A stretch of 64,000 nt of DNA. Origin: Candidatus Latescibacterota bacterium (lineage in GTDB: Bacteria; Latescibacterota; UBA2968; GCA-2709665). This document shows, piece by piece, positions 4,487 through 9,889 of the stretch. The first letter of the stretch is position 1, and every line of letters begins with the position of its first letter. The translations under genes and the position numbers were made by a program. Location: NCBI GenBank assembly GCA_965116875.1, contig OZ220733.1, forward strand, positions 4,992,001 through 5,056,000, given 5' to 3'. Below the pieces are notes generated by a model. The model saw only the letters and a program-made list of their open reading frames with translations. It was not told the DNA's origin and searched no databases.

Positions 4487-5695
4487 ATGACAATCCATAC
4501 GATGAACAAGGCCGTCCCCACTTTTTCCGATCGCGTGCTCGACGTCGATGAATCGCTTACGGTAGCCACCTTCGCCAGGATGGGGGAACTGAAACGCAGG
4601 GGCGCGGACATCATTTCTCTGGTAGCCGGTGAACCCGATTTCGATACCCCGGCCAATGTCAAGAAAGCCGCGATCCGGGCCATTGACAAGGGATACACGA
4701 AGTACACGGCGCCTGCATCGGGCCTGCCCGAACTCAGACAGGCAATCGCACGAAAGCTGAAGATGGAGAACGATCTGGAATACGACCCGTCCCAGATTGT
4801 TGTTACGTGCGGCGCCAAGCAGGTGATATTCGACGCGGTGGTCGCGCTGATCAACCCAGGAGACGAGGCCATTATCCCCTCCCCGTTCTGGGTCAGCTAT
4901 GCCGATCAGGTCCGGCTGATGGGCGGGCGACCGGTCATATTGCATACATCCGAGGAGACAGGTTACCGGCTGACTCCCCACGCTCTTGCAAATGCCATCA
5001 CGTCGAGGACAAAGATCCTGTTTCTGAACAGCCCTTGCAACCCGACCGGTGAAGTCTACACGCCCGGTGAACTGGGCGCACTTGGGGACGTCATCTCGGA
5101 CGCCGGCATCTTTGTGATTTCAGACGAGATATACGAAAAAATCACCTACGATCCCGCCCGGCACGTCTCCATCGCCGCAGCGCACCCCGGGGCCGGATGC
5201 AGGACCCTCGTTGTCAACGGATTTTCCAAAGCGTACGCGATGACGGGATGGCGTGTGGGCTATGGCGCGGGTCCGCCCGATCTGATGCGGTTGATCGCCA
5301 GAGTACAGAGCCAGGAAACCACCAACACCTGCACCATTTCCCAGGTTGCGGCCATCGAAGCGCTCACGGGAACCCAGGAGACCGTGGAAACCATGCGGGA
5401 CGCATTTCAAGAGCGCCGCGATCTGATCGTTGCGCGCCTGAATCGCATGCCGGGCGTCTCGTGTCGCCTTCCTCAAGGCGCTTTTTACGCATTTCCAAAC
5501 GTGTCCGGTCTGTACGGCGACCGTGTCAGGAACGACGTCGAACTCACGAATTATCTGCTGGACGAGGCCATGACGGGATGCGTTCCCGGCAGCGGTTTCG
5601 GTTCCGGAGACCACCTGCGTTTTTCGTATGCCGCGTCTCTGCCAATGATTCACGAAGCCATGGACCGCGTCGAGGATGCCGTCAGCAGGATTTGA
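4487..5695 (+). CDS. aspartate aminotransferase family PLP enzyme
   Basis: GEPDFDTP, NSPCNPTG, SDEIYE, FSKAYAMTGWRVG motifs. Confidence 0.88.
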   Translation: MTIHTMNKAVPTFSDRVLDVDESLTVATFARMGELKRRGADIISLVAGEPDFDTPANVKKAAIRAIDKGYTKYTAPASGLPELRQAIARKLKMENDLEYDPSQIVVTCGAKQVIFDAVVALINPGDEAIIPSPFWVSYADQVRLMGGRPVILHTSEETGYRLTPHALANAITSRTKILFLNSPCNPTGEVYTPGELGALGDVISDAGIFVISDEIYEKITYDPARHVSIAAAHPGAGCRTLVVNGFSKAYAMTGWRVGYGAGPPDLMRLIARVQSQETTNTCTISQVAAIEALTGTQETVETMRDAFQERRDLIVARLNRMPGVSCRLPQGAFYAFPNVSGLYGDRVRNDVELTNYLLDEAMTGCVPGSGFGSGDHLRFSYAASLPMIHEAMDRVEDAVSRI

Positions 5696-5718
5696 ACGCC
5701 CGGAAAGGACAACTGAGC

Positions 5719-6684
5719 ATGAATGGCAAGAAGAAAATCTACCTGGACTTCGAGCGTCCTATTGCTGCCCTGGACAGGAAAATCGAGGAACTCAAGGCGC
5801 GCGCCGAGGCTGAGCCAGGTGAGGTTGAGGGCGAGTTGTCCGCCCTGGAGAAGCGGTTGCAAAAGGTGGAAAAGGACGTTTATGCGGACATGAGCAGGTG
5901 GCAGATATACCAGGTGGCGGGGCACCCACAGCGCCCTCATACGCTCGACTATATCCGATTGATATTCACCGACTTCATGGAACTTCACGGAGACCGGAAT
6001 TATCGGGACGATCCGGCGGTCGTAAGCGGCTTCGCCCGTCTCGACGGACAGCCACTTCTTGTCCTGGGTACGCAAAAGGGGCGCAACACCACGGAAAACA
6101 TCCATCGAAACTTCGGCATGGCGCACCCTGAAGGGTATCGCAAAGCCCTCCGCGTAATGAAACTCGCCGCCAAATTCAAACGACCGGTCCTCTGTCTGAT
6201 CGATACGCCCGGAGCGTATCCCGGCATCGGATCGGAGGAGCGAAGCGTCTCGGAAGCCATCGCCAGGAATCTCTTTGAAATCTCGCGTCTTCCGGTCCCC
6301 ATCATCGTGGTCATTATCGGGGAAGGCGCAAGCGGCGGCGCGCTCGGCATCGGCGTCGGCGACCGAATCCTGATGCTGGAGAACGCGTGGTACTCCGTCA
6401 TCAACCCCCAGTCCTGCTCTCTCATTCTCTGGAGGAACCGCGACAAGAAAGAAGAGGCCGCCGAGGCGTTGAAGATAACCGCACAGGACCTCGTCCCTCT
6501 CGGGATCGTCGATCGAATTGTGCCCGAGCCCTTTGGCGGCGCGCATAGAGATCCGAAGACGGCCGGTCAGAATCTGAAGCGAATCCTGTCGGACGAACTT
6601 CAGAATTTGCTGCGCAAACGACCTGAGGAACTGATCCAGGAGCGCGTTGACAAATTCGGTCGCATGGGCGTCTGGGACGAGTGA
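5719..6684 (+). CDS. accA: acetyl-CoA carboxylase carboxyltransferase alpha subunit
   Basis: YLDFERPI, ELHGDR, FGMAHPEGYRKALR, IDTPGAYPG, GEGASGGALG; GAAAGGA RBS before ATG 5719. Confidence 0.95.
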   Translation: MNGKKKIYLDFERPIAALDRKIEELKARAEAEPGEVEGELSALEKRLQKVEKDVYADMSRWQIYQVAGHPQRPHTLDYIRLIFTDFMELHGDRNYRDDPAVVSGFARLDGQPLLVLGTQKGRNTTENIHRNFGMAHPEGYRKALRVMKLAAKFKRPVLCLIDTPGAYPGIGSEERSVSEAIARNLFEISRLPVPIIVVIIGEGASGGALGIGVGDRILMLENAWYSVINPQSCSLILWRNRDKKEEAAEALKITAQDLVPLGIVDRIVPEPFGGAHRDPKTAGQNLKRILSDELQNLLRKRPEELIQERVDKFGRMGVWDE

Positions 6685-6741
6685 CCCGCCGGCGCCGTCG
6701 CGGCACCCCTTCTGTGACATCGGAACACATATGAAATCAGC

Positions 6742-6774
6742 AAAAAATGGGCCACTGGTTGGCCGCTTTTTTTT
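6742..6774 (+). terminator. intrinsic terminator after accA (possibly bidirectional)
   Basis: A6-TG-GGCCA-ctggt-TGGCC-GC-T8. Confidence 0.65.
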
Positions 6775-6931
6775 AAGCACGAAAACCCTGCGCCTCGGGA
6801 ATTCACTAACTTGCTGTTTACGTGGGGGGTTCCGCAATTCGACCGGAAATGGGGAATTTTTCCGGCGAAAAAGGCGCCTCACATACCGCCTCCACACGAA
6901 AAAAAACATTCACAACGTGCAGCCGATTGAG

Positions 6932-6944
6932 TATCAATATCTTA
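6932..6944 (+). promoter_or_regulatory. IHF-like binding site
   Basis: TATCAAtatcTTA matches WATCAANNNNTTR exactly. Confidence 0.5.
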
Positions 6945-6990
6945 TGTGAAAGTTGCGGGTTTCGCACGTTCTTTTTTATCAAATTACCCC

Positions 6991-7019
6991 TTGACGACTC
7001 CCCGATCGGACTATATATT
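6991..7019 (+). promoter_or_regulatory. sigma70-type promoter
   Basis: TTGACG-17 nt-TATATT preceded by an A/T-rich UP-like tract. Confidence 0.65.
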
Positions 7020-7025
7020 TCAATC

Positions 7026-7466
7026 GTGCTTGCCAAGAGCCTGTTTGCGCATAAGGCATTGTCTTGGAGCAAGTTACATACTTCGGATCCGTGCGTCTTT
7101 TCCACAGATATTCCCATGCAAAGACGGCCGGATTCGAAGAGGCACCGGGAGATGGCCGAGGTTCGTTTTCACGTTGGGCAGGACCCCGGATCATACCGGT
7201 TCAATTGATTGAAATTGCGCATTTTCGGCGCCAGATTCTCAGGCGTTCATTGCATGAATGGGCGGCATGGCCGTTTCCGGGATTCGCTTCAGCACCTGAT
7301 CCAGCCTGGGGGAAGTTGAAAGCATCGGCTCTTTGGTTGGCGGCAGTCTTATTGGGGGAGATAATACTGCCGGCTATACCTACTCAATCAGAACTGCTGC
7401 TTTTCTTCCAATGCATCGTGGCTCAGTGCTGATTCGGCATTCCTGGACGGCTATCCGCCCATTTTA
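7026..7466 (+). ncRNA. candidate large structured non-coding RNA (family unknown; 3' part is a 6S-like rod)
   Basis: Hairpins at 7028-7074, 7081-7139, 7144-7200, 7227-7247 and a 207-nt rod at 7257-7463; G-U pairs favour the + strand; promoter upstream, U-run after; no credible ORF. Confidence 0.6.
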
Positions 7467-7522
7467 GCATGGTCAGTTCAACCCTCCACCCAACACCCGC
7501 CGCGACGGTTCCTTTCGCTTCG

Positions 7523-9889
7523 TCACCGCCCTTCCAGCCATCCCCGGGCGTCGATTCCCTTTTCATCGATCCGGATCTCTACGGCGCCGACCTCGTCGGT
7601 CCTGTAGATGGAAATCCCCATTGCCTCGCAGCGCTGGATCACCTCGCGGGACGGATGGCGGAATCTGTTCCGGACACCGCACGAGATGGCCACAAGATCC
7701 GGTCGTACTGCGCTCAGGAAAGCAGCGGTGGACGAAGTTCGGGATCCATGGTGCGCCGCCTTCAGCACCTCGGCATGCAGCAGATCCCCCCACCGCAGGA
7801 GATCCGGATCCGTTTCATGCTCAATGTCGCCCGTCAGCAGAACAGCAGAGCCTCCATGCTTCAGTCGGATCACCACGGAACCGTTGTTCAGGCCCATCGG
7901 CGCAGCGCCATGCCTCGAAACGTAATCCGGCGTCGGATGCAGTACGAGGGCGTCCACACCGCCCAGCCCTCCAAGCCGGTCTCCCGCCTCGATCGTCATA
8001 TAGCGTACGCCCTTTTCCCGGATCAGAGTCCGGATCCGACGGGCGGTCCATGAGTCGTAGAATTGCCCGGCGTCGAGGTACCAGCCAACTTCCACCCTTT
8101 CCAGGAGCGTCACGAATCCACCAATGTGATCGCTGTGGGGATGAGACGCGACCACGGCGTCGATCCGGTTGATTCCCTCAGCCTTGAGAAACGGGATCAG
8201 TACCCGTTCACCCATGTCGATGTTCAACGCGCGCAAGCCGCTGTCTACCAGCATCGTCCTCCCGTTCGGGAACCTTATAAATATCCCGTCGCCCTGGCCC
8301 ACGTCCAGTACCAGCATACGCAGGTCAGCGGGGCGCGGCCACACTCCCGACCAGACCCAGAGATTCGCAAGTGACAGTCCCGCGATCACAAGCCGCCGGC
8401 CCCACGGTCCGGACCTCGTCTCCGGAAGAATCAGAAGCGCGGCACACAGATACAGCCCTGTTACAGTCCATCCGGGTCCTCGCATTTCCACGGCGGCCCA
8501 CGCCGGCGAGGCGAACCATTCCGCGGTCTGGATGGCGCCCTTCAGGACAGCCCAGTTCGCACCGTTCAACAACGACGCGACCGGCGCAGACACGTGATAG
8601 ACGATGACCCCAAGCAACCCCAGCGCAACGGCGGCCGCCATCAGAGGTACCACAATCAGGTTGGCGAGGATAGAGACCACCGAGAGAAGTCCGAAATAGG
8701 TCAGCACGAGAGGGAGCGTGCCTATCTGTGCGGCCAACGACACCGCGAGCGGCGCCCATACCCAATGACCGATGCCGCCCTCGCCGGCCCCGGGCAGGCA
8801 GCCGCGGACAGGCCGATAGAAAATCAGGATTCCACCGGTCGCGGAAAAAGAGAGCTGAAAGCCAACGTCGAACAGGTCCTGCGGCCTGAAAATCAGGATG
8901 ACCAGGGCTGCCAGGCCGAGAGAATTGAGTCCCTCGCCCTGCGTGTTTCCCAGGCGCCCCCAGATGGTAATCGCGCACATCATGGATGCCCGGACAACCG
9001 ATGGCGGCAGGCCCGTGACCAGCGCATAGAGCAGCACAGCGCCTATGGTGGCCCAGGCGGTCGCCTTCCTTCCGCATCCGACCGCGCCGAGTGCAAAAAA
9101 CACCACCGCGGCAATCAGGCCAACGTGCAGGCCCGAGACCGCGAGTACGTGGTTGACCCCGGCCCGGGTAAACGCGGTACGGACGGGGTCGGGAACCCCG
9201 CGTTTTTCGCCCAGCAGGATCCCGTTCAACAGCCCTGCCGGACCACCGGACAGATTGCACGCGACCCCGGCGCGCACGCCTCTGCGCACCGGCAGCACCA
9301 CGTACGTCCACAGCCAGCCTCCCCTGCCCGGGCGGATTTCGAGAATCTGTTCCCTCCTTGACAAGGAGCCCATGGCATGGATTCCCTTCCGCTCCAGGAA
9401 GGCGCGGTAATCGAACGCGCCCGGATTCCTGGATGGATGGGGACGGCGAAGGTGCAACCGCGTCGTCAGACGGTCCCCATAATCCACGTCCGGCCGGAAC
9501 TTGCGGAACCGCAGGAGAACCGTTCCCTGAATCGCATACACTGTGTCGCCAACGGTGATCCGCTCTGAGGCGACCCGAAGGCGCAACCCGTCTTCCATCC
9601 ATTCGGGTTCCTCAGCCGCGCGCCCGTCAAGCACGACAGGACGGTCTCGTCCGGCAAACCGTGCGACGTGGTCTTCGGGCAACCCCTTCATCACGCTTTC
9701 GTATCGCATCGCCCCCAGAACGAGCAGCAGGGCTGCCGGCCACGCGCAATGGGTCCTCGCGCTGACCAGGCACACCATCCAGAGCCCGAGGCCACCTGTC
9801 CACAGCGCCCACACGGGCACGTCCAGACGATGTGCCATGAACACCCCCGCGGCAAAGAACGCCGCGGACAGCAGCGCCGGACGCCGCAT
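7523..9889 (-). CDS. comEC: DNA internalization competence protein ComEC/Rec2
   Basis: RNPGAFDY, HVLAVSGLHVG, SVVRAS, GFQLSF, and MBL domain DVGQGD, SHPHSDHIGG, HHGSRTS. Confidence 0.93.
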   Translation of the reverse strand: MRRPALLSAAFFAAGVFMAHRLDVPVWALWTGGLGLWMVCLVSARTHCAWPAALLLVLGAMRYESVMKGLPEDHVARFAGRDRPVVLDGRAAEEPEWMEDGLRLRVASERITVGDTVYAIQGTVLLRFRKFRPDVDYGDRLTTRLHLRRPHPSRNPGAFDYRAFLERKGIHAMGSLSRREQILEIRPGRGGWLWTYVVLPVRRGVRAGVACNLSGGPAGLLNGILLGEKRGVPDPVRTAFTRAGVNHVLAVSGLHVGLIAAVVFFALGAVGCGRKATAWATIGAVLLYALVTGLPPSVVRASMMCAITIWGRLGNTQGEGLNSLGLAALVILIFRPQDLFDVGFQLSFSATGGILIFYRPVRGCLPGAGEGGIGHWVWAPLAVSLAAQIGTLPLVLTYFGLLSVVSILANLIVVPLMAAAVALGLLGVIVYHVSAPVASLLNGANWAVLKGAIQTAEWFASPAWAAVEMRGPGWTVTGLYLCAALLILPETRSGPWGRRLVIAGLSLANLWVWSGVWPRPADLRMLVLDVGQGDGIFIRFPNGRTMLVDSGLRALNIDMGERVLIPFLKAEGINRIDAVVASHPHSDHIGGFVTLLERVEVGWYLDAGQFYDSWTARRIRTLIREKGVRYMTIEAGDRLGGLGGVDALVLHPTPDYVSRHGAAPMGLNNGSVVIRLKHGGSAVLLTGDIEHETDPDLLRWGDLLHAEVLKAAHHGSRTSSTAAFLSAVRPDLVAISCGVRNRFRHPSREVIQRCEAMGISIYRTDEVGAVEIRIDEKGIDARGWLEGR

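What the first reader, a model, noticed from the sequence alone, without database searches (positions are those of the whole stretch)
7026..7466. Candidate novel ~440-nt multi-domain structured ncRNA between accA and comEC
Seen pairings: GCTTGC/GCAAGT with CAAGA/TCTTG (7028-7074); CTTCGGATCCG/CGGATTCGAAG with CGTCTTT/AAAGACG (7081-7139); ACCGG/CCGGT, GAT/ATC, CCG/CGG, GGTTC/GGACC (7144-7200); GGCGCC/GGCGTT (7227-7247); then a long rod at 7257-7463 ending in a U-run. A possible closing helix 7018-7026/7206-7214 overlaps the -10, so it may not be in the transcript. Most helices contain G-U pairs that work only on the + strand, which points to selection on RNA rather than DNA palindromes. I saw no RNase P, tmRNA, SRP, tRNA or riboswitch signature, and there is no downstream same-strand gene to regulate. 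Inference: a stand-alone large RNA of unknown family.
Basis: partly seen in the sequence, partly recalled or inferred. Interest (0 to 1): 0.85.

Follow-up and report, generated by a model that had tools for sequence, protein, structure and literature searches.

The report
New rod-shaped RNA gene in Latescibacterota
This is a real, transcribed, non-coding RNA gene whose 210-base hairpin-like rod is kept in every sampled genome of one order of the uncultivated phylum Latescibacterota and matches no catalogued RNA family, so it is a good candidate for a new housekeeping RNA, possibly the group's missing 6S-type RNA.

Summary
Window 7026-7466 (+) is a single-copy gene with its own near-consensus sigma-70 promoter (6991-7019), ending in a stem plus U-run at 7466. 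It lies between accA and a converging comEC.

No Rfam 15 family matches. RNase P, tmRNA and SRP RNA lie elsewhere in the genome. No ORF is conserved.

The conserved core is not the whole 440 nt. It is the 3' rod (7257-7466, about 210 nt).
- My covariance models find exactly one copy in 18/18 and 30/30 sampled genomes of the two families of this order.
- They find none in 102 other genomes of the phylum.
- 57 of 66 rod base pairs show compensatory double changes.

The 5' part (7026-7256) is lineage-specific, 66 to 577 nt in other genera. Within this genus only P1, P2 and a small P3 hairpin are conserved.

Metatranscriptome contigs of 433, 410 and 301 nt from relatives cover 5' domain plus rod in one piece.

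Function is inferred. It is probably a trans-acting protein-binding RNA. The best specific guess (about 1 in 3) is a 6S-like RNA polymerase decoy. No 6S is detectable in this genome, but the central loop is small and the 6S models do not match.

The parts
6915..6946 (+). Conserved upstream element, about 45-80 nt before the -35 box, preceded by an A-run
   Evidence: Nearly invariant in the 15 genus sequences. A recognisably similar block stands at the same distance from the -35 box in 17 of the 18 order-wide loci where a promoter was found (G031 keeps only its 3' part). A role as a regulator binding site is inference.
6970..6986 (+). A/T-rich tract just upstream of -35 (UP-element-like)
   Evidence: Sequence. 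The T-run and the AAATTA-like part are kept in the genus alignment and in other genera. Function is inferred.
6991..7019 (+). Sigma-70-type promoter: -35 TTGACG (6991-6996), 17-nt spacer, -10 TATATT (7014-7019; TATATATT from 7012)
   Evidence: 10 of 12 consensus matches. The same TTGAC...TATATATT was found upstream of the rod in 18 of 19 loci of the order. There are only 5 such strict sites in the 5.45-Mb genome.
7026..7077 (+). P1 hairpin; start of transcript inferred at about 7026
   Evidence: MFE. In the genus alignment the helices are 90-92% paired with 8 pairs showing double changes. The TSS is inferred from the -10 position. RNA contigs of relatives reach to about 7035-7036.
7081..7139 (+).
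   Evidence: MFE. It forms in nearly all 15 individually folded homologues. It is 86.7% paired in the genus, mostly through one-sided G-U changes.
7142..7164 (+). P3 small hairpin (GAACCG...CGGUUC type in relatives; weakened in this genome)
Evidence: RNAalifold consensus. It is 92.4% paired but with no double changes.
7165..7256 (+). Variable linker; a possible long-range helix 7170-7182 with 7225-7237
   Evidence: The two genus subclades differ here. The G000-specific helices are 45-67% paired. The long-range helix is 84% paired with one double change: weak.
7257..7466 (+). Conserved rod: closing stem 7257-7265 with 7455-7463, internal loop, apical arm, apex loop; ends in a U-run
   Evidence: Models R1-R3 find one full-length copy per genome across the order. 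57 of 66 pairs have double changes in 24 sequences, and 88.7% of cells are paired against 39-51% when partners are slid.
7304..7309 (+). 5' strand of the central internal loop (GCCUGG), followed by a G-rich run that pairs
   Evidence: Unpaired in the consensus. The purine-rich GGRGGA-like run is kept in most genera.
7410..7418 (+). 3' strand of the central internal loop, holding the near-universal self-complementary hexamer AUGCAU (GUGCAC in family f2)
   Evidence: Order-wide alignment. The change A..U to G..C keeps the palindrome.
7349..7365 (+). Apex hairpin with loop GGGGGA; GGGGGAGAU is invariant across the order
   Evidence: Invariant columns in 24 sequences, while the stem below covaries.
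7381..7389 (+). Asymmetric 9-10 nt A-rich bulge on the 3' strand of the apical arm, next to the invariant GGU/ACC pairs
   Evidence: Unpaired in all folds. Its sequence varies but its position and the flanking pairs are kept.
7455..7466 (+). 3' half of the closing stem plus U-run: likely intrinsic terminator in this genus
   Evidence: Sequence. Conservation stops here. In family f2 and genera g2, g4 and g11 a separate GC hairpin plus T-run follows the rod instead.
5740..6684 (+). accA (upstream neighbour, same strand), with its own terminator at 6750-6774
   Evidence: Pfam ACCA 8.8e-138. Terminator scan.
7523..9889 (-). comEC (converging neighbour)
   Evidence: Pfam Competence, DUF4131 and Lactamase_B.

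Best explanation
SHOWN: a stand-alone, single-copy, non-coding RNA gene. A near-consensus sigma-70 promoter drives a transcript of about 441 nt (about 7026-7466, + strand). The transcript has a genus-specific 5' domain (hairpins P1-P3 and a variable linker) and an order-wide conserved ~210-nt rod. In this genus the rod's closing stem plus U-run ends the transcript. INFERRED (about 0.9): it acts in trans as a stable structured RNA. Its three invariant single-stranded patches are contact sites for a conserved partner. The patches are the apex loop GGGGGAGAU, the RUGCAY strand of the central internal loop, and the bulge beside GGU/ACC. COMMITTED MECHANISM (about 1 in 3, the most likely single one): the rod works like 6S RNA. 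It would be an abundant double-stranded rod with a central opening that occupies the sigma-70 RNA polymerase holoenzyme as a promoter decoy. The variable 5' region would be a lineage-specific leader or add-on. I do not file it as a member of the Rfam 6S family.
For: - Gene-like anatomy and strand.
- One copy in the own genome.
- Full-length homologues in 14/14 congeners at 73-92% identity, with conservation bounded by the -35 box and the U-run.
- Covariation: 57/66 pairs with double changes against 38.5 +/- 2.6 in shuffles (0/500); 88.7% paired against 39-51% slid.
- The promoter is kept in 18/19 loci although its distance to the rod ranges from 95 to 606 nt.
- RNA-library contigs of 433, 410 and 301 nt from relatives join 5' domain and rod.
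- No conserved ORF, and 94 of 99 gap runs are single bases.
- For the 6S-like reading, the shape fits the definition read in PMC8876501 (Introduction passages): about 200 nt, rod-shaped, a closing stem and an apical stem around a central unpaired region, limited sequence identity.
- The arms are about 48 and 45 nt either side of the loop.
- No 6S is detectable elsewhere in the complete genome with RF00013, RF01685, or an nhmmer profile of the phylum's own 6S-like RNAs. RNase P, tmRNA and SRP RNA are all found.
Against: - RF00013 and RF01685 give no match to the element even at E<=10, nor to 7 divergent homologues at E<=5.
- The central loop is only about 6-8 x 9 nt. The short helices around it themselves covary. 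The large unstructured bubble that defines 6S is therefore not seen.
- The most conserved part is the apex loop, which is not a known 6S determinant (recalled).
- The lack of a 6S hit is not specific to this order. RF00013 is over cut-off in 0/151 genomes of the phylum, and the sister family f3 is 0/64. There is therefore no complementary distribution.
- RF00013 itself rings in only 4-5 of 14 control genomes, so absence of a hit is weak evidence.
- My models do not hit the phylum's weak 6S-like loci.
- The 5' domain stays joined to the rod in RNA contigs and is conserved within the genus, which is more than a disposable leader would need.
- The RNA contigs show neither strand nor abundance, and no silent control stretch or DNA run was laid beside them.
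Confidence: 0.4

Rival explanations
1. Same RNA, but a new class. It would be a ribonucleoprotein or decoy RNA whose partner is not RNA polymerase. The rigid rod would present the invariant apex loop, the palindromic internal-loop strand and the A-rich bulge to some other conserved factor. For example, the two Shine-Dalgarno-like G-rich patches about 45 nt apart could bind a G-rich-sequence binding protein or the 30S subunit. Alternatively, the self-complementary AUGCAU/GUGCAC hexamer could pair two RNA molecules.
For: - The invariant 9-nt apex motif and the near-universal RUGCAY hexamer point to sequence-specific recognition rather than shape mimicry.
- The hexamer stays self-complementary when it changes: AUGCAU in f1, GUGCAC in f2, with G-U tolerant variants.
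- The family is confined to one order, 48/48 against 0/102. That fits a lineage-specific invention better than a universal RNA.
- The 16S rRNA 3' end carries CCUCC, so the G-rich loops could pair with it.
- No Rfam family of any kind matches.
Against: - No partner is identified.
- CsrA, the best known binder of GGA loops, is not found in the genome.
- The 5' G-rich patch is largely base-paired and is not alignable in genus g8.
- Self-pairing of an internal-loop hexamer is unproven.
- Confinement to one order may only reflect the reach of the models.
Confidence: 0.35
2. A cis-acting element of its neighbours. It could be a long 3' UTR or terminator structure of accA. It could instead be a barrier or antisense element against the converging comEC. 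The conserved gene order accA > RNA > < comEC would then reflect a functional link.
For: The gene order is kept across the order. AccA lies upstream in 17 of 19 loci and ComEC converges downstream in 18 of 19, and likewise in 3 further loci. The rod ends 57 nt from the comEC stop codon.
Against: - accA has its own terminator at 6750-6774, and the RNA has its own strong, conserved promoter.
- In f2, g2, g4 and g11 a separate, apparently two-way terminator stands between rod and comEC, so read-through antisense is not the design.
- Sequence-invariant loops are not needed for a terminator.
- Gene order kept within one order is also expected from common descent alone.
Confidence: 0.08
3. Not a functional RNA. 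It would be a DNA-level palindrome, the remnant of a mobile element, or a small protein-coding gene.
For: The minus strand also folds well (z = -3.92). One run gave a fold-back contig inside the rod (X6). A 32-44 aa TTG-started ORF lies in the invariant rod in 7 of 15 genus members.
Against: - There is one copy per genome.
- The G-U excess is strand-specific, 123 against 14.
- Compensatory changes occur in 57/66 pairs.
- The promoter is conserved.
- No ORF is conserved in the other 8 of 15 members, and indels are almost all single bases.
- Pfam finds nothing in the local ORFs.
Confidence: 0.04

Closest known systems
6S RNA (Rfam RF00013; 6S-Flavo RF01685)
   Same: It is about 200 nt and rod-shaped, with a closing stem and an apical stem interrupted by small loops around a central unpaired region (definition read in PMC8876501). 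It is present once per genome and in every sampled genome of the group. It has a strong sigma-70-type promoter. 6S RNAs are known to be matured from longer precursors (abstract of PMC10578484 in the listing; the E. coli case is recalled).
   Different: Neither covariance model gives a score. The central loop is about 6-8 x 9 nt instead of a large bubble. The apex loop is invariant. A 66-577 nt 5' region is conserved within genera and stays attached in RNA contigs. The family is confined to one order.
Ms1 RNA of mycobacteria (recalled, not tested beyond the Rfam-wide scan)
   Same: It is a longer-than-6S (about 300 nt) rod-like RNA once taken for a 6S homologue. It shows that 6S-shaped RNAs can have other lengths and partners.
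   Different: It comes from a different phylum, and no Rfam family matched here. Its partner, core RNA polymerase, is known for Ms1 and unknown here.
Large orphan structured RNAs of bacteria: OLE, GOLLD, ROOL, raiA motif (recalled; all in Rfam)
   Same: These are several-hundred-nucleotide, highly structured, lineage-restricted RNAs found by comparative genomics, with function unknown or only partly known. The raiA motif also sits beside a competence gene (comFC; recalled).
   Different: None of their models matches. Those RNAs are multi-branched and ornate, whereas the conserved part here is a single unbranched rod. The neighbour here is comEC, not comFC.
CsrB/RsmZ-type protein sponges
   Same: They have G-rich GGA-containing motifs displayed in a hairpin loop and an internal loop.
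   Different: There are only two such motifs here, and no CsrA gene is found in the genome.

Membership tests
6S RNA | [quoted passage not shown] | tested here: met
   The rod is 176-214 nt in all homologues. The folds are, the covariation.
6S RNA | Large, relatively unstructured central bubble between the two arms | tested here: not met
   There is only a 6-8 x 9 nt internal loop at the mid-point of the arms. The flanking 2-3 bp helices covary, for example CG:10/UA:9 at one pair. The alignments were fitted to my model, so some over-pairing is possible.
6S RNA | Match to the Rfam covariance models RF00013 or RF01685 | tested here: not met
   There is no match at E<=10 on 6700-7600, none at E<=5 on 7 divergent loci, and none in the whole genome. 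The RF01685 control rang over cut-off in 0 of 14 genomes, so that search is poorly controlled.
6S RNA | Binds sigma-70 holoenzyme and templates short product RNAs | not testable with these tools
   This needs binding assays or small-RNA reads. Only contigs were available.
6S RNA | One or two copies per genome, near-universal within the group | tested here: met
   One hit per genome in 48/48 sampled genomes of the order. Two draft genomes of genus g5 gave no hit.
RNase P RNA / tmRNA / SRP RNA | Match to the family model; a single essential copy | tested here: not met
   All three are found elsewhere in the genome over cut-off. None matches in the window.
Any Rfam 15 family (including OLE, GOLLD, ROOL, raiA, HEARO, riboswitches, ribozymes) | Score at or above the gathering threshold | tested here: not met
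   There are 0 matches in the 64-kb window. Only chance-level matches with eukaryotic miRNA/snoRNA names appear at E<=10, and only terminator-like noise in 7 homologous loci.
MITE / dispersed repeat | Many copies per genome | tested here: not met
   One place in 5.45 Mb; one per genome elsewhere.
CsrA-sponge RNA | Presence of CsrA and many GGA loops | tested here: not met
   PF02599 is not found in the genome (the control rings in 3 of 14). There are only two conserved GGA-bearing patches.
Small protein gene / type I toxin | ORF conserved in frame, start and length | tested here: not met
   No ORF is shared by all 15 genus members, and 94 of 99 gap runs are 1 base. Pfam finds nothing.

The most novel reading that the evidence does not exclude
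The rod is the core of a previously undescribed class of housekeeping ribonucleoprotein RNA invented in one order of Latescibacterota, many of them sponge and reef associates. It would be unrelated to 6S. It would be recognised through an invariant GGGGGAGAU apex loop and a self-complementary internal-loop hexamer that may pair two molecules. Each genus would have added its own large 5' domain of up to about 580 nt.
Probability: 0.35. Interest if true: 0.75.

Novelty: new variant of a known kind. Interest (0 to 1): 0.62.

Why it matters
Latescibacterota have no cultured, genetically tractable member, and I found no paper on their non-coding RNAs. Searches looked for Latescibacter together with 6S RNA, ncRNA, sRNA, small RNA and riboswitch. 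One search found no paper with both terms. None of the papers listed contains the phylum name.

The RNA is present once in every sampled genome of an order. It has one of the five best promoter matches in the genome, and it carries invariant loops. It is therefore likely to do something central.

If it is the 6S equivalent, it widens the known structural range of 6S RNAs, with a small bubble, an invariant apex and long 5' add-ons. It also explains why model-based annotation finds no 6S in this phylum.

If it is not, it is a new, easily modelled family. Covariation already supports 57 of 66 pairs, so it is ready for Rfam and for biochemical partner hunting.

Tried and rejected
**Known RNA families**
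- Rfam at gathering score and at E<=10 / E<=5 gave nothing usable.
- The hits named FAM13A-AS1, snoRNA, mir-4716 and similar are chance (E 0.58-8).

**Mobile element**
- Rejected: one copy.

**RNase P / tmRNA / SRP**
- Rejected: all three are found elsewhere.

**CsrA sponge**
- Rejected: no CsrA.

**Coding**
- Rejected.

**Link to the phylum's own 6S-like RNAs**
- Model R2 with filters off on the six weak RF00013 loci gave only noise (best 11 bits).
- An nhmmer profile of those six RNAs against the own genome gave a best E of 0.035. That hit lies inside a 554-aa ORF, so it is chance.

**Sister family f3**
- In 5 genomes the region downstream of accA holds neither comEC nor the promoter motif. 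Synteny therefore could not carry the family further.

**Metagenome scan with the apex motif**
- 106 stretches were reported, and I ran R2 on the 80 that became loci.
- Only L202 was a real rod. The rest are chance matches.

Its count of double-change pairs is no better than shuffles: 17 against 15.4, with 141/500 shuffles reaching it.
- I replaced it with the genus consensus.
- A candidate long-range helix (A1 columns 73-77 with 211-215) competes with P2 and was not kept.

**RNA contigs**
- There was no cover of 6700-7039 or 7482-7700 in the four runs laid.
- That is absence of cover in contigs only. It proves nothing about the flanks.

**Other leads and limits**
- Pyrimidine-rich stretches in several leaders look complementary to the apex loop (by eye). 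This was not tested statistically.
- Supplementary files of papers were not consulted.

Full report
**1. What is there**

The window is part of a complete 5.45-Mb, 59.6% G+C genome. By AccA (90% identity), its nearest named relative is a record titled 'MAG: Candidatus Latescibacterota bacterium'.

The element lies at 7026-7466. Upstream is a gene with an ACCA domain (E 8.8e-138). Downstream on the opposite strand is a converging ComEC gene.

A sigma-70-type promoter stands at 6991-7019: TTGACG, 17 nt, TATATT, 10 of 12 consensus matches. accA has its own terminator further upstream at 6750-6774. The element ends with CCGCCC followed by a U-run at 7466.

It is more stable than all 100 dinucleotide shuffles (-175.1 kcal/mol, z = -3.81). 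The minus strand has a similar z (-3.92) but a weaker energy (-151.9).

**2. Not a known RNA, not a repeat, not coding**

- cmscan against all 4227 Rfam 15 families gives no match at gathering score anywhere in the 64 kb.
- It gives only chance-level names at E<=10 around the element.
- RNase P RNA, tmRNA and SRP RNA are each found elsewhere in the genome above their cut-offs.
- The 441-nt stretch occurs once in the genome.
- Pfam finds nothing in the overlapping ORFs.
- In 15 genus members no ORF is conserved in start, frame and length. 94 of 99 alignment gap runs are single bases.

**3. Conservation in the genus**

blastn finds a full-length homologue in 14 of 14 congeneric genomes at 73-92% identity. 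In 26 other genomes of the same family and order it finds only one weak partial hit.

In the alignment with flanks, conservation begins at the promoter region and stops exactly at the U-run. Downstream sequence diverges completely.

The 3' half is almost invariant. The 5' half is variable.

**4. The rod is the conserved core**

I built a covariance model from the rod (R1). It found full-length single copies in 20 of 22 genomes of the family.

- A second model (R2) found it in f1 18/18, f2 27/30 and 0/102 other genomes of a 151-genome phylum sample.
- With laxer filters, two of the three f2 misses were hits.
- A third model was built from 24 sequences of both families plus one metagenome contig (R3). 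It found f1 18/18, f2 30/30 and others 0/102, always one hit per genome.
- Two draft genomes of genus g5 (80% and 94% complete) gave no hit.

On the family alignment (19 sequences):
- 95.7% of cells are paired, against 38-54% when partners are slid.
- 34 of 66 pairs show double changes, against 12.7 +/- 2.2 in shuffles.

On the order-wide alignment (24 sequences):
- 88.7% of cells are paired, against 39-51% slid.
- 57 of 66 pairs show double changes, against 38.5 +/- 2.6 in shuffles (0/500).

These alignments were fitted to the model, which favours it. However, RNAalifold on the same alignment, and independent single-sequence folds of very different sequences, give the same rod.

G-U pairs outnumber A-C/C-A cells 123 to 14, which fixes the + strand as the RNA.

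**5. Anatomy of the rod**

- A closing stem GGGYGG/CCRCCC.
- About 48 nt of interrupted helix per arm.
- An internal loop. Its 5' strand is GCCUGG here. Its 3' strand carries a near-universal self-complementary hexamer: AUGCAU in family f1, GUGCAC in f2, with G-U tolerant variants.
- About 45 nt of apical arm per side, with invariant GGU/ACC pairs next to a 9-10 nt A-rich bulge on the 3' strand.
- An apex hairpin whose loop and 3' flank, GGGGGAGAU, never change, although the stem below covaries.

**6. Promoter, leader and terminator across the order**

The same TTGAC...TATATATT promoter is found upstream of the rod in 18 of 19 loci examined. Its distance from the rod varies by genus:

| Genus | Distance to rod (nt) |
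|---|---|
| g6 | 95-100 |
| g1 (this genus) | 265 |
| g10 | 334-344 |
| g3, g11 | 376-379 |
| g4 | 424 |
| g2 | 556-606 |

The leaders are therefore 66 to 577 nt long. I saw no similarity between genera.

A further block about 45-80 nt upstream of the -35 box (6915-6946 here) is recognisably conserved across the order. Only five sites in the whole genome match the strict promoter pattern.

In g1 and g3 the rod's closing stem plus U-run looks like the terminator. In f2, g2, g4 and g11 a separate GC hairpin with a T-run follows within about 5-15 nt.

The gene order accA, RNA, converging comEC holds in the loci examined. AccA was seen in 17 of 19; the two misses have the longest leaders. ComEC was seen in 18 of 19; the miss is a truncated contig. 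It also holds in L202, L264 and L265.

In five genomes of the sister family f3, the region after accA has neither comEC nor the motif.

**7. The 5' domain in this genus**

When the fold of this genome alone is tested on the 15 genus sequences, only 71.2% of cells pair. The count of double-change pairs is not above shuffles.

| Helix | Cells paired |
|---|---|
| P1 | 85% |
| P2 | 73% |
| 7200-7256 helices | 45-67% |

A genus consensus from RNAalifold keeps P1, P2, a small P3 hairpin and one long-range helix. In this consensus:
- 88.4% of cells are paired, against 34-48% slid.
- 12 pairs show double changes, against 6.1 +/- 1.6 in shuffles (0/500).

P3 is weakened by two substitutions in this genome.

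The 5' domain is thus real but only partly resolved. The sample is 15 close relatives.

**8. Transcription**

The run index lists holders that include reef and sponge metagenomes and several RNA libraries with small shares. I laid four runs.

- **X16, a sponge metatranscriptome:** a 433-nt contig. It matches 7046-7079 and 7254-7468, with 171 differing letters between and 10 more letters at the 5' side.
- **X19, a marine metatranscriptome of another study:** a 410-nt contig. It matches 7059-7077 and 7257-7443, with 24 more letters at the 5' side.
- **X17, same study as X16:** a 301-nt contig. It covers 7254-7457 plus 98 letters of a relative's 5' domain.

The loose letters resemble P1 and linker rows of other genus members in my alignment (by eye). 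These contigs therefore come from relatives.

They show that 5' domain and rod exist joined in RNA libraries. Their outer ends fall about 10 nt inside the predicted start and at or just inside the predicted end.

This is a weak hint of a discrete transcript, for four reasons:
- Contigs give no strand and no level.
- DNA carry-over is not excluded.
- No DNA run or silent stretch was laid beside them.
- A fourth run (X6, RNA only by guess) gave a fold-back contig inside the rod.

**9. What it does**

*Shown:* a conserved, structured, independently promoted, non-coding gene. *Inferred:* it acts in trans through its invariant unpaired patches.

The most likely single mechanism is 6S-like. The case for it:
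- The shape meets the textbook description, which I read in passages of PMC8876501.
- The copy number and ubiquity fit.
- The promoter is strong.
- No 6S can be found in this complete genome by RF00013, by RF01685, or by a profile of the phylum's own 6S-like RNAs.

The case against it:
- The 6S models do not score the rod at all.
- The central loop is small and its neighbours covary.
- The apex is invariant.
- The lack of a 6S hit is general in the phylum: 0/151 over cut-off, with only weak hits in f9 and f12. It is also a known weakness of the model, since the control rings in 4-5 of 14 genomes.

I put this mechanism at about one in three. A new RNP or decoy class with another partner gets about the same. 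A cis role for the neighbours gets under one in ten.

A CsrA sponge is excluded by the absence of CsrA.

**10. Novelty**

The family is not in Rfam 15. My full-text searches found no paper that mentions the phylum together with 6S RNA (0 papers). None of the listed papers in two broader searches contains the phylum name.

I rate it a new variant of a known kind: a rod-shaped, stand-alone bacterial RNA of the 6S type. Membership in 6S is not established.

Noticed in passing
window 6915-6946; same relative position in L126-L146: A sequence block about 45-80 nt upstream of the -35 box, preceded by an A- or T-run, is conserved across both families of the order. It looks like a regulator binding site or a second promoter element. 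I found no convincing -35/-10 pair in it on either strand by eye.
   Followed up: partly
L147-L152 (genomes G054, G050, G069, G045, G062, G058; families f9 and f12): Weak RF00013 hits (22.7-43.2 bits, all under the 46.4-bit cut-off). They are full-length, about 176-180 nt, and fold as closing stem, open centre and apical stem with a U-run. They look like genuine 6S RNAs that Rfam's threshold misses in this phylum. They are not next to accA or comEC.
   Followed up: partly
leaders in L137-L146 (g6) and L126-L128 (g4, g2): Pyrimidine-rich stretches in the 5' leaders (UAUCUCC-like in g6, UAUCCCCC-like in g2/g4) are complementary to the invariant apex loop GGGGGAGAU. This hints at a leader-apex interaction. 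It was seen by eye and not tested against shuffles.
   Followed up: no
window 5197-6684 and 4487-5695: The longest accA ORF (495 aa from ATG 5197) overlaps the preceding aminotransferase gene by about 500 nt. Its ACCA domain starts only at residue 182. The true accA start is probably much later, near 5740.
   Followed up: no
window 7263-7434, run X6: A 202-nt contig at word depth 41, more than 99% identical to the window, folds back on itself ('goes back 172'). This is as expected if a hairpin RNA self-primed or an assembler collapsed the inverted repeat. The run is RNA only by guess.
   Followed up: no
whole window 1-64000: Not a single Rfam family reaches its gathering score in 64 kb: no tRNA, no riboswitch, no leader.
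   Followed up: no
G000:C1 about 4162181: The conserved 16S 3'-terminal motif occurs once in the genome, so there is probably a single rRNA operon. The 16S 3' end carries the canonical CCUCC anti-Shine-Dalgarno sequence.
   Followed up: no
L266-L271 (genera g7, g8, g9): The rods in these genera are shorter (176-182 nt). In g8 the G-rich 5' strand of the internal loop could not be aligned, while the AUGCAU strand and the apex are kept.
   Followed up: partly
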